64,000 nt of DNA from Neodothiora populina (Eukaryota): NCBI RefSeq assembly GCF_041146345.1, contig NW_027191411.1:434001-498000 (forward strand), read 5' to 3'. How positions within the stretch are numbered: the first letter of the stretch is position 1; the number at the start of each line of letters is the position of its first letter. A model generated the notes under the pieces. It made no database searches and was not told where the DNA came from. It saw nothing but the letters and a program-made list of their open reading frames with translations. Positions 10,157-53,677 of the stretch are shown piece after piece. Position numbers and translations under genes: made by a program.

Positions 10157-10426
10157 AGTGATTTGTAAGGGTTTGGATAGTAGACAAAAGAAATTGATCA
10201 AGACTGATTCTATGATTATTGGAAGATGCTCGACGTCAGTATGAGAAGAGTGTCGATGCCTGTTCTACCATTTCCACAGTCACGGCCACTGACTCGACCA
10301 AATGCATGATACTGTCACAGCACGTAAAATTACTAAAAGCTATAGTATATTAGCCTGAAATCGACGAGTTGTCTACTGTAGGAGCCACATAGCGTGTCAG
10401 ATAGCAAAAAGAGAGAGAAAAGTAAA

Positions 10427-10545
10427 ACGTACAGCAGCAGGGATTCCCACGTGGTCACCCACCGTAGTACTAATCTGCCGGTCAACTGCTTATGTCTGGC
10501 AGAGCGGACGGGATGCCCAGTTCTCAGCCGCCTGTGGCCGTACGT
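10427..10545 (-). rRNA. 5S ribosomal RNA (dispersed copy)
   Basis: Reverse complement ACGTACGGCCACAGG...GGGCATCCCGTCCGCTCTGCC...TTAGTACTACGGTGGGTGACCACGTGGGAATCC...GCTGTACGT (119 nt). The termini pair, a T-run terminator follows, and a TATA-like ATATAG lies about 26-30 nt upstream. Confidence 0.96.
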
Positions 10546-48555: not shown

Positions 48556-48629
48556 TCTTCCGTGGCGCAATTGGCTAGCGCGTTCGACTGTTAATCGAGA
48601 GGTTCCTAGTTCAAGCCTAGGCGGGAGAG
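48556..48629 (+). tRNA. tRNA-Asn(GTT), copy 1
   Basis: Acceptor stem TCTTCCG/CGGGAGA, D-loop TGGCGCAATTGGCTAGCGC, anticodon arm TTCGA-CTGTTAA-TCGAG, T-loop GTTCAAGC, downstream T-run. Confidence 0.96.
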
Positions 48630-49014: not shown

Positions 49015-49122
49015 GGCGCTTTGGCGGAGTGGTTAACGCGATGCCCTGCTATAGATCGCTTTCATTCGGTCTTAGTCCAGGCATTTCCTTCGGGAGCGTG
49101 TGTTCGAATCACACAGGCGTCG
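49015..49122 (+). tRNA. tRNA-Ser(GCT) with a ~27-nt intron
   Basis: Acceptor GGCGCTT/AGGCGTC; anticodon arm ATGCC-CTGCTA|intron 49052-49078|A-GGCAT; long variable arm; T-arm GTGTG-TTCGAAT-CACAC. Confidence 0.93.
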
Positions 49123-52143: not shown

Positions 52144-53007
52144 GTGCAGGTGGGTGTCCATTCACTGCGAACGAGTTCTTTTGTACAGCTGCTGTTGTAG
52201 ACTCTTCTTATGTCCTGTCGTACGTAATCGCAATACGCTTTGCTTCAGACCTAAGATCTCAGGTATCAAGAGCCATAGATAAGTGCTTTCAGAAGTGCAA
52301 GATACGTGGTAGCTATTATGTGTTAGAAAAGACTACTTGAGGTTCGATATCTACGAGCACGTGACCAGTTGCTGAAATATACCCAGCACTCCCCACATAG
52401 ACTTCCTCTACAACATACTTTCTCATCATTCTACATTATCCAATATGTCTCTCCTCTGTATAGGTTCCCAATATTCAGTAGGGCCTCCTGGAATCGTTAT
52501 GCTACGAAGAGAAGTTGTGCATCGCGTTTGTGCATATCCAAAGCATCTTCAAGCGTTCAGCTGGCTAATTGTTTTAGCCTTGTCAACGAGTCGGCTATTA
52601 TTGCCGCAGAATAAAGCACAGCGTGTCTACTGTATGACTGCGGACACAAGGACCCGGTTCGCCAGGCCAACTCCTTTGGCCTTGTTAGCGACTCGGCGAT
52701 CACAAAAGAAGCACACATGACTACGGGATCCACTTCCCTCCAACCAACTCTTTTGGCCTCGTCGATAAATCGGCGATCGCCAACGAAGCACACTCAGCCA
52801 GTCCGTATGACAGCAGGGATCCACTTGGAGGTCAGTGAGGAGCGCATCTATTGGTCGCTGAAAGCGCTCAGGCCGCAAGCAATCTCCCTACTGCACCAAC
52901 CACCCCAACCACTCTTCTATCAATTTCCATGCCCTTTGCTTGCTCTTGGTCTGAGCGTCTCTGAGAGGGGTATATATACACCTCTTTACCCGCTCCCTCT
53001 TCATTTC

Positions 53008-53257
53008 ACCAGTCTCGTACGATTTTCTGGTTCCCTTGTACAGCAGCACATTTGCTAACAATCCTCACAGTTTGCCTTTTGGCTTAGATCAAGTGTAGTA
53101 TCTGTTCTTTTCAGTTTAATCTCTGAAACACTCCTACGGGAGTATTTATTGATTATACTTATTTTTGGAAATAGGTCTCCGGGTGCTCTGAGCTTGCTCA
53201 TCCTCGGGACCACAGTGTCGCTCGTATTGCACTACCTCGAGCTGACGCGAACCCACC
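53008..53257 (+). ncRNA. U2: U2 spliceosomal snRNA, interrupted by a predicted 54-nt spliceosomal intron (53017-53070)
   Basis: TTTGCCTTTTGGCTTAGATCAAGTGTAGTATCTGTTCTTTTCAG includes the branch-pairing GTAGTA; Sm site ATTTTTGG at 53161; loop IV ATTGCAC; T-run after 53258; TATA at 52971. The 5' nonamer ACCAGTCTC is separated by GTACGA...GCTAAC...CAG. Confidence 0.95.
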
Positions 53258-53409
53258 CTTTTTTTTCATTGGTATCCTGGCTCATTTCGAGCTGGGTTCT
53301 GAAGAAGAAAAACCTGTTCAGAGCTTCGTGAAAGGGGTTGGATCAGCTGCTACAGATGCTGTATTGTGTAATCGATGCACTGTCAGTGCTGAGTGTTGTG
53401 ATTGTGCTT

Positions 53410-53603: not shown

Positions 53604-53677
53604 TCTTCCGTGGCGCAATTGGCTAGCGCGTTCGACTGTTAATCGAGAGGTTCCTAGTTCAAGCCTAGGCGGGAGAG
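53604..53677 (+). tRNA. tRNA-Asn(GTT), copy 2
   Basis: Identical 74-nt sequence to 48556-48629. Confidence 0.96.

What the first reader, a model, noticed from the sequence alone, without database searches (positions are those of the whole stretch)
53008..53070. U2 snRNA gene split by an mRNA-type spliceosomal intron after nucleotide 9
Seen: the conserved U2 body begins abruptly at 53071 (TTTGCCTTTTGGCTTAGATC) and is preceded by a 3' splice signal (GCTAAC at 53054-53059, then ATCCTCACAG) instead of the expected ...TCTC. 54 nt upstream is a GTACGA donor (53017), directly preceded by ACCAGTCTC and, about 30-37 nt further up, a TATA element. Splicing gives ACCAGTCTC|TTTGCCTTTTGGC, in exact register with S. 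cerevisiae U2 (ACGAAUCUC UUUGCC). Established: mRNA-type introns are known in fungal U6 (e.g. S. pombe) and in Rhodotorula snRNAs including U2, and have been explained by reverse splicing near the catalytic core. Inference: this insertion lies in the 5' segment forming U2 stem I / U2-U6 helix II, and I do not know of a U2 intron at this site in a filamentous ascomycete. U2 maturation would depend on U2-containing spliceosomes using a 9-nt capped first exon, a possible feedback loop.
Basis: partly seen in the sequence, partly recalled or inferred. Interest (0 to 1): 0.88.

Follow-up and report, generated by a model that had tools for sequence, protein, structure and literature searches.

The report
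Intron-split U2 spliceosomal RNA gene
In this ascomycete fungus the gene for U2, a core RNA of the intron-removing machinery, is itself interrupted a few bases from its start by a small ordinary-looking intron, and the same arrangement recurs in many environmental fungal U2 genes without, as far as I could find, having been described.

Summary
Rfam finds one full-length U2 snRNA gene at 53064-53256 (138.2 bits). Its first bases do not fit the model, and two pairs of stem I are missing.

Removing 53017-53070 in silico has three effects:
- It restores stem I.
- It lengthens and improves the match to a profile of intronless relatives (160.0 against 154.2 bits).
- It places the start 35-40 nt behind the TATA box, as in intronless genes.

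Chance gives the signal set in 8 of 400,000 shuffles.

The main evidence comes from other genes. Of 115 classifiable U2 copies on metagenome contigs, 22 are interrupted in the first 5-11 nt. Of these, 21 parse without mismatch as consensus prefix + GT…CTRAY…AG (51-66 nt) + consensus remainder, at six positions. Four share the window's site.

No RNA evidence could be obtained. Nine full-text searches found no description of such U2 introns in ascomycetes.

Verdict: a real spliceosomal intron (confidence 0.85). It is a new variant of a known kind, not unique to this genome.

The parts
52953..52957 (+). GAGCG, a one-mismatch version of the TAGCG element found upstream of the TATA box of related U2 genes. 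A weak, optional part of the promoter.
   Evidence: TAGCG lies within 110 nt upstream of +1 in 34 of 54 related loci, against 3.2 expected in shuffles. The window has only GAGCG.
52971..52978 (+). TATA box (TATATATA) of the U2 gene
   Evidence: In one search the distance from the last TATAWA to A53011 is 38 nt; to A53008 it works out at 35 (derived). Intronless relatives span 37-57 nt (27 of 34 with a TATAWA) and intron-bearing relatives 32-45 (9 of 22, the window counted among them). From this TATAWA (52973) to the start of the Rfam hit or of the U2 body (53064-53071) it would be about 91-98 nt.
53008..53016 (+). Exon 1 at its largest extent. The probable start is A53008 (9 nt) or A53011 (6 nt). 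It ends in …TCTC and supplies the outer two pairs of stem I.
   Evidence: The last four bases match the consensus AGCTCTC of relatives. The AG is displaced by one base (2 mismatches in 6).
53017..53070 (+). 54-nt spliceosomal-type intron: donor GTACGA 53017-53022, branch GCTAAC 53054-53059 (A53058), acceptor CAG 53068-53070
   Evidence: Same site as L004, L028, L049 and L116. Relatives' introns are 51-66 nt long.
53071..53256 (+). Exon 2: the body of U2 snRNA (rest of stem I, branch-site recognition region, stem-loops, Sm site, 3' stem-loops)
   Evidence: Rfam RF00004, 138.2 bits, model positions 1-192.
53095..53100 (+). GTAGTA, the branch-site recognition sequence of U2 (motif name recalled)
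   Evidence: perfect match to the Rfam consensus in this stretch.
53161..53168 (+). ATTTTTGG, the Sm-binding site (motif name recalled)
53259..53266 (+). Run of eight T directly after the end of the Rfam match. This is 3' flank and its role was not tested.

Best explanation
This is a working U2 snRNA gene whose transcript must be spliced before it can function.

Proposed mechanism:
1. RNA polymerase II starts 35-40 nt behind the TATA box, at A53008 or A53011.
2. The capped precursor carries a first exon of only 6-9 nt (…AGUCUC).
3. The spliceosome recognises GUACGA (53017), the branch GCUAAC (A53058) and CAG (53070), and removes 54 nt.
4. This joins …UCUC to UUUGCC…. The junction recreates the conserved U2 5' end, completes stem I and, by inference, the segment that pairs with the U6 3' end.

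Shown here:
- the sequence signals and their improbability by chance;
- restoration of structure and of profile match on in-silico removal;
- promoter placement relative to exon 1;
- the same architecture in many other U2 genes.

Inferred: transcription, the start site, actual splicing, and that this copy supplies the cell's U2.

The intron belongs to a set of 5'-proximal U2 introns at six neighbouring positions in ascomycete-type U2 genes. These arose by repeated insertion, by sliding, or both.
For: -: full-length U2 (138.2 bits) whose 5' end alone fails to match, with stem I outer pairs missing.
- the in-silico spliced 5' 32 nt fold with the extended stem I (-7.7 kcal/mol), against -4.4 kcal/mol and the inner stem only for the unspliced 32 nt.
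- against a profile of 29 distinct intronless relatives, the spliced form scores 160.0 bits and aligns from profile position 4. The unspliced form scores 154.2 bits and aligns from position 8.
- the TATA-to-start distance fits exon 1, not the U2 body.
- 8 of 400,000 shuffles pass the signal test.
- among 118 U2 copies on 116 metagenome loci, 22 are interrupted. Of these, 21 parse with 0 mismatches as a prefix of AGCTCTCTTTGCC, then GT…(51-66 nt)…AG, then the exact remainder. The positions are 5 (1 locus), 6 (5), 7 (4, the window's site), 9 (1), 10 (1) and 11 (9).
- all 22 introns tabulated (21 loci plus the window) have G at +5, a CTRAY branch 10-19 nt before the 3' end, and CAG, TAG or AAG acceptors.
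- intron interiors diverge faster than the U2 bodies. For three copies on one contig the bodies are 84-93% identical and the introns 56-74%.
- all 10 intron-bearing loci tested are full-length U2 by Rfam (119.5-151.3 bits).
Against: - No RNA evidence. No whole genome is held. No sequencing run holds more than 0.09 of the stretch's words.
- The window's donor is the weakest of the 22: it is the only one with A rather than T at +6. Its exon 1 is one base shorter than the consensus. A decaying copy therefore cannot be excluded.
- Other U2 copies in this genome could not be looked for.
- The profile gain on splicing is modest (5.8 bits), because only 4 further positions align.
- The comparison loci are unnamed metagenome contigs. 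Calling them ascomycete is my inference.
- A capped first exon of 6-9 nt is very short for spliceosomal recognition. This is a concern from recall, not a test.
Confidence: 0.85

Rival explanations
1. The intron is real by descent, but this copy is a weakly expressed or decaying paralogue. Another U2 gene, with or without an intron, supplies the cell.
For: The donor GTACGA is the only one of 22 without T at +6. Exon 1 lacks one base of the consensus. The exact TAGCG upstream element is absent, with only GAGCG present. Fungal U2 genes can be multicopy: three copies lie on one contig (L061-L063) and two on another (L039 and L081).
Against: The body is intact: 138.2 bits over the full model length, with a perfect branch-site recognition region and Sm site. 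TATA box, exon 1, donor G+5, branch and acceptor are all in place. Only one U2 gene lies in the 64 kb. The rest of the genome could not be searched.
Confidence: 0.09
2. There is no splicing. This lineage's U2 has a divergent 5' end, with transcription starting inside or just before 53060-53071. The upstream motifs are coincidental.
For: Rfam aligns the unspliced DNA end to end and well above threshold. No RNA data exist.
Against: The TATAWA used (52973) would then lie about 91-98 nt upstream, outside the 37-57 nt seen in intronless relatives. Stem I would lose two pairs. Chance gives the signals in 8 of 400,000 shuffles. Twenty-one other U2 genes show the exact complementary split of the consensus 5' end.
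Confidence: 0.04
3. The 54 nt are a recent insertion, such as a mobile-element fragment or an assembly artefact, that has inactivated the gene.
For: None specific. An insertion at this place would also break the Rfam 5' alignment.
Against: The insert begins with GT, ends with AG and has a correctly spaced branch site. Insertions at the same site with unrelated interiors occur in L004, L028, L049 and L116: interiors are 35-50% identical to the window's in global alignment, which I take to be no detectable similarity (no shuffled control for this score was run).
Confidence: 0.02

Closest known systems
mRNA-type intron in the U2 snRNA gene of the basidiomycete yeast Rhodotorula hasegawae (Takahashi et al. 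1993, Mol Cell Biol 13:5613). I saw this only as a reference and as one sentence of the review PMC5855946. The paper itself is not held.
   Same: The same gene family is interrupted by a GT-AG intron that the spliceosome must remove, so U2 production depends on splicing.
   Different: From recall, not checked: the Rhodotorula intron lies just downstream of the branch-site recognition region, not in the first dozen nucleotides. That is a single species. Here the intron sits 6-9 nt from the cap, and equivalents occur at six neighbouring positions in many ascomycete-type genes.
Introns of fungal U6 snRNA genes (S. pombe and others; Tani and Ohshima 1989 and 1991; Canzler et al. 2016). Known to me through the review PMC5855946, passages read.
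   Same: Canonical spliceosomal introns in a spliceosomal RNA gene. They are unrelated in sequence between lineages, occupy several positions, and are explained by reverse splicing.
   Different: U6 is a Pol III gene without a TATA-to-cap-proximal exon arrangement of this kind. Its introns concentrate near the catalytic core (ISL, ACAGA box). Here the host is U2, a Pol II, Sm-class RNA, and the sites are at the extreme 5' end.
Introns of fungal U3 snoRNA genes (Canzler, Stadler and Hertel 2017, PMC5832005; passages read)
   Same: This is the best analogy for how it works. U3 is an independently transcribed, TATA-driven, trimethylguanosine-capped small RNA gene. [quoted passage not shown] They are common in Pezizomycotina, and both intron-bearing and intronless genes occur in relatives.
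   Different: A different RNA with a different function (rRNA processing). [quoted passage not shown] U2 is not on the list.
Spliceosomal introns in rDNA of ascomycetes (Bhattacharya et al. 2000). Seen only as a citation.
   Same: Spliceosomal introns in non-coding RNA genes of ascomycetes.
   Different: The host genes are Pol I genes. I read no details.

Membership tests
U2 spliceosomal RNA (Rfam RF00004) | Covariance-model score at or above the gathering score (46 bits) over the whole model | tested here: met
   138.2 bits, model positions 1-192 of 192, window 53064-53256 +.
U2 spliceosomal RNA (Rfam RF00004) | Branch-site recognition sequence and Sm site present (motif names recalled) | tested here: met
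   GTAGTA at 53095-53100 and ATTTTTGG at 53161-53168, both matching the consensus line of the Rfam alignment.
U2 spliceosomal RNA (Rfam RF00004) | Complete 5' stem-loop I | tested here: met
   Met only after removing 53017-53070. In the unspliced DNA the outer pairs are gapped or flagged, and only the inner 3-bp stem folds (-4.4 kcal/mol). The spliced 5' end folds with the added UCU:AGA pairs (-7.7 kcal/mol).
U2-type GT-AG spliceosomal intron | 5' splice site GT with G at +5 | tested here: met
   GTACGA at 53017-53022. All 22 introns compared have G at +5. The window alone has A at +6.
U2-type GT-AG spliceosomal intron | Branch-point CTRAY a short distance before the 3' splice site, with no intervening AG | tested here: met
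   GCTAAC at 53054-53059. The branch A is 12 nt before the end. Relatives range from 10 to 19 nt.
U2-type GT-AG spliceosomal intron | 3' splice site YAG | tested here: met
   CAG at 53068-53070. Across the 22 introns: 16 CAG, 4 TAG, 2 AAG.
U2-type GT-AG spliceosomal intron | The exon junction recreates a conserved product | tested here: met
   Twenty-one of 22 interrupted relatives rejoin to the exact consensus AGCTCTCTTTGCC. The window rejoins to …AGTCTCTTTGCC, one base shorter. The profile match extends from position 8 to position 4.
U2-type GT-AG spliceosomal intron | Removal seen in RNA (junction reads, lariat) | not testable with these tools
   No genome is held. No run holds more than 0.09 of the words. 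No intronless near-identical twin of any intron-bearing locus was found in the contig set (best ungapped identity 83%).
Introns of snRNA genes acquired by reverse splicing next to the catalytic centre (Tani and Ohshima model) | [quoted passage not shown] | not tested
   The site is in stem I and the 5' terminal segment. Its distance from the catalytic centre was not examined here. This genome's U6 is not in the window, so pairing could not be checked.

The most novel reading that the evidence does not exclude
Cap-proximal introns in U2 snRNA genes are a widespread, so far undescribed feature of filamentous ascomycetes. They occupy at least six positions within nucleotides 5-11, so they have been gained, or have slid, repeatedly at a hot spot. 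They are spliced from capped first exons of only 5-11 nt, which from recall would be among the shortest natural first exons known. Together with the 5' introns of fungal U3, they would point to a general mechanism that places or keeps introns next to the cap of snRNA-type Pol II genes. Candidates are reverse splicing into the pyrimidine-rich 5' end, or a benefit of splicing for the maturation of these RNAs.
Probability: 0.4. Interest if true: 0.8.

Novelty: new variant of a known kind. Interest (0 to 1): 0.62.

Why it matters
- **Self-dependence.** U2 is the RNA that selects the branch point of every intron. A U2 gene that needs splicing makes the machinery depend on itself.
- **Annotation.** Standard searches (Rfam here; BLAST in the A. 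fumigatus study) return U2 genes with a wrong or 'poorly conserved' 5' end.
- **Intron gain.** If the broader pattern holds, fungal U2 joins U6 and U3 as a frequently interrupted small RNA. That gives a third natural data set for asking how spliceosomal introns are gained (reverse splicing against sliding).
- **Splicing mechanism.** It also provides natural substrates with 5-11-nt capped first exons, which test how the cap-binding complex, U1 and U5 handle an almost absent 5' exon.

Tried and rejected
- **Own-genome search** for other U2 copies and for U6: no genome is held.
- **RNA evidence.** The run search found 24 runs, none holding more than 0.09 of the sampled words and only one on record as RNA. 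I did not resend any part.
- **Earlier findings of this scan** by place, words and sequence: nothing on fungal U2 introns.
- **Papers not held.** The Rhodotorula U2 paper and Canzler 2016, so the Rhodotorula intron position is recalled only.
- **A. fumigatus supplement** with the predicted U2 structures: no text could be read. It may bear on whether an Aspergillus U2 intron was overlooked.
- **Organism identity.** A 611-aa protein of the window sits alone in its 90% cluster. The Atlas gives only Ascomycota. Class or genus remains unknown.
- **L058.** It has a clear branch and acceptor (…GCTAAC…TTAAG|GCC), but its exon 1 was not found in the 153 nt before the contig end. I count it as interrupted but unresolved.
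- **L019.** It starts at CAG|TTTGCC and is too short to classify.
- **Spliced twin.** A cDNA-like spliced twin of any intron-bearing locus among the contigs: none.
- **Rfam scores as a proxy for spliced against unspliced.** Ten intronless loci mean 149.4 bits and ten intron-bearing loci 134.1 bits (my arithmetic). This is confounded by differences in the bodies, so I use it only as consistent.
- **U2 body tree**. It is too weakly resolved (43 of 87 inner branches open) to decide between one origin with sliding and several gains.

Full report
**What is there**

Rfam finds one U2 snRNA gene in the window, at 53064-53256 on the + strand (RF00004, 138.2 bits against a gathering score of 46, full model length). 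From 53071 on, the match to the consensus is nearly perfect through stem I, the branch-site recognition region (GTAGTA, 53095-53100), the Sm site (ATTTTTGG, 53161-53168) and the 3' stem-loops.

The first seven bases of the hit (CUCACAg) do not match. Two model positions are gapped, and the outer stem I pairs are flagged as non-pairs.

| Element | Coordinates |
|---|---|
| TATATATA | 52971-52978 |
| ACCAGTCTC | 53008-53016 |
| GTACGA | 53017-53022 |
| GCTAAC (branch A at 53058) | 53054-53059 |
| CAG | 53068-53070 |
| TTTGCC… | from 53071 |

No AG lies between the branch A and the acceptor. The host is an ascomycete: a 611-aa DUF3405 protein of the window has its nearest Atlas clusters in Ascomycota. 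I could not get a finer placement.

**Is it more than chance?**

I asked for three things together: an AG directly before TTTGCC, a CTRAY 8-25 nt before it, and TCTC immediately followed by GTNNG 40-120 nt upstream. This passes in 8 of 400,000 shuffles of the 150 nt upstream. The full pattern occurs once on both strands of the 64-kb window, at this place. A generic GT…CTRAY…AG pattern occurs 133 and 143 times on the two strands.

**What removal of 53017-53070 does**

This was computed in scripts from the window file.

- The 5' 32 nt of the rejoined RNA fold into stem I with the added UCU:AGA pairs (-7.7 kcal/mol). The unspliced equivalent forms only the inner 3-bp stem (-4.4 kcal/mol).
- I built a profile from 29 distinct intronless relatives. 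The rejoined sequence scores 160.0 bits and aligns from profile position 4. The genomic sequence scores 154.2 bits and aligns from position 8. The gain is small because only four more positions align.

**Related genes**

One scan of the metagenome contigs with a 36-base stretch of the U2 5' core returned 116 loci with 118 U2 copies. It is restricted to genes with exactly that core.

Classified by what precedes GCC:

| Class | Copies |
|---|---|
| Contiguous …ACCACTCKG\|GCC | 47 |
| Contiguous 'ascomycete-type' 5' end | 41 |
| Other contiguous 5' ends | 5 |
| Too short to classify | 3 |
| Interrupted | 22 |

- The first class is a separate clade in the tree (98% SH-aLRT). In 41 of the 46 copies with enough flank it carries its own upstream element.
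- In the second class, 34 copies read exactly AGCTCTCTTT|GCC.

Of the 22 interrupted copies, 21 parse without a single mismatch as three parts: a prefix of AGCTCTCTTTGCC, an intron of 51-66 nt that starts with GT and ends with AG, and the exact remainder of that consensus. The split falls at these positions:

| Split after consensus position | Loci |
|---|---|
| 5 | L027 |
| 6 | L006, L018, L073, L082, L114 |
| 7 | L004, L028, L049, L116 |
| 9 | L029 |
| 10 | L035 |
| 11 | L039, L061, L062, L063, L069, L081, L109, L112, L113 |

- The window has the position-7 site.
- L069 and L081 have identical bodies, and L112 is close to them, so the number of independent genes at position 11 is lower than nine.
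- L058 has a clear branch and acceptor, but its exon 1 lies beyond the contig end.

All 22 introns tabulated (the 21 parsed loci plus the window) share the standard signals:
- G at +5;
- donors GTAAGT (8), GTACGT (5), GTCAGT (5) and four singletons;
- a CTRAY branch 10-19 nt before the end;
- acceptors CAG (16), TAG (4) or AAG (2).

All ten intron-bearing loci that I gave to Rfam are full-length U2 genes (119.5-151.3 bits), as are the ten intronless ones (135.2-160.1 bits).

Intron interiors diverge faster than the RNA bodies. Three copies on one contig (L061-L063) have bodies 84-93% identical and introns 56-74% identical. The window's intron interior is 29-53% identical to the others in global alignment, which I take to be no detectable similarity (no shuffled control for this score was run). 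Conserved exons and splice signals around free-running interiors are what working introns look like.

**Promoter geometry**

- In intronless genes the last TATAWA lies 37-57 nt (median 46) before the A of AGCTC. A strict TATAWA was found in 27 of 34 of them.
- In intron-bearing genes it lies 32-45 nt before the same A of exon 1. A strict TATAWA was found in 9 of 22 of these, the window counted among them.
- In the window the distance is 38 nt to A53011, which makes it 35 nt to A53008.
- Measured to the start of the Rfam hit or of the U2 body (53064-53071) it would be about 91-98 nt.
- A TAGCG element upstream of the TATA box occurs in 34 of 54 of these loci, against 3.2 expected. The window has only GAGCG at 52953-52957.

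The promoter is therefore placed to start transcription at exon 1.

**Where the RNA starts**

This is not settled. Against the consensus AGCTCTC the window reads AG-TCTC, one base shorter. By homology the start could therefore be A53011, giving a 6-nt first exon.

Both candidate A's follow a C. The TATA distances do not discriminate.

With A53008 as +1, the A reported as 2'-O-methylated in Neurospora U2 (A31, followed by G32; PMC2780460, passages) would fall on A53092, followed by G53093. This agrees with the 9-nt reading. However, I did not see how that paper fixed its numbering.

**Evolution of the positions**

A tree of 90 distinct U2 bodies is weakly resolved: 43 of 87 inner branches are open.

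- Seven of the eight distinct position-11 genes form one clade (99%).
- The position-6 and position-7 genes are scattered among intronless ones.
- One supported clade (95%, 12 rows) holds 8 intronless genes, 2 at position 6, 1 at position 9 and 1 at position 10.
- L004 (position 7) and L058 (an acceptor at position 10) are sisters (100%).

A gene tree of 189 columns cannot separate one gain with sliding and losses from several gains. Either way the first dozen nucleotides of U2 are a hot spot.

**Mechanism, and what is shown**

Shown:
- the signals and their improbability by chance;
- structural and profile restoration;
- promoter placement;
- recurrence in many genes.

Inferred:
- Pol II starts at 53008 or 53011;
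- the capped precursor is spliced by U2-containing spliceosomes;
- the product is the functional U2.

As far as logic goes it is positive feedback (less U2, less U2 maturation), and nothing here tests it.

I could not test pairing with U6. No U6 gene lies in the window and no genome is held.

No RNA evidence was obtainable.

**Against the reading**

- The window's donor is the only one with A at +6.
- Its exon 1 is one base short.
- It lacks the exact TAGCG element.

A decaying paralogue is therefore a fair rival, to which I give 0.09.

The comparison loci are unnamed environmental contigs. That they are filamentous ascomycetes is my inference, drawn from their similarity to this window's gene and from their short introns.

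**Comparison with what is known**

- *Introns in spliceosomal RNA genes.* Spliceosomal introns are known in U6 of many fungi. They are also known in U1, U2 and U5 of Rhodotorula hasegawae (review PMC5855946, passages). From recall, the Rhodotorula U2 intron lies downstream of the branch-site recognition region. The paper is not held.
- *Fungal U3 snoRNA, the closest functional analogy.* This is also a TATA-driven, trimethylguanosine-capped small RNA gene. [quoted passage not shown] - *A. fumigatus.* The small-RNA study found that U2 'could only be partially aligned'. It predicted loci of 276-277 nt and noted a size mismatch with the northern blot (PMC2377427, passages). This would fit an overlooked intron. 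I could not read its supplement.
- *Search for prior reports.* Nine full-text searches found no description of a cap-proximal U2 intron in ascomycetes. The library lacks most subscription journals, so this is not proof of absence.

**Verdict**

I rate it a new variant of a known kind, with interest 0.62.

Noticed in passing
L-loci (for example L024, L046, L056, L062, L069), 55-100 nt upstream of the U2 start; window 52953-52957: A TAGCG element (often CACTAGCGCC or TAGCGGCTTGGC) lies upstream of the TATA box in 34 of 54 ascomycete-type U2 loci, against 3.2 expected in shuffles. It is probably a proximal promoter element of these snRNA genes. The window has only GAGCG.
   Followed up: partly
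47 loci of the …ACCACTCKG|GCC type (for example L012, L020, L064): A second, well separated U2 type (98% support) never shows the 5' intron in this sample. It carries its own upstream element, GKYCYGTGCR, in 41 of the 46 copies with at least 100 nt of upstream flank (exact GGTCCGTGCGC in 24), against 1 of 66 other copies. The taxon is unknown.
   Followed up: partly
L061, L062, L063 (one contig, about 1-1.7 kb apart); L039 and L081 (one contig): These are tandem arrays of U2 genes in which every copy keeps the position-11 intron, while the intron sequence and length differ between copies (66, 51 and 63 nt).
   Followed up: partly
L032 and L055: Each is an inverted pair of U2 5' cores about 230 nt apart. 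One copy of each pair sits on a very long branch (1.39 and 1.52 changes per column), so it is probably a truncated or decayed duplicate.
   Followed up: no
window 48556-48629 and 53604-53677 (+): Two identical tRNA-Asn(GTT) genes, one of them 350 nt downstream of the U2 gene. Their flanks are unrelated: 186 of 474 positions are identical ungapped, counting the 74 identical gene positions.
   Followed up: partly
window 49015-49122 (+): Rfam calls a tRNA spanning 108 nt (45.1 bits) that ARAGORN does not report. It is probably a long-arm or intron-containing tRNA.
   Followed up: no
window 10426-10545 (-): A solitary 5S rRNA gene (76.4 bits) lies away from any rDNA unit in the window.
   Followed up: no
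Literature: PMC2377427, Table 3: [quoted passage not shown] They may hold an unrecognised intron.
   Followed up: partly
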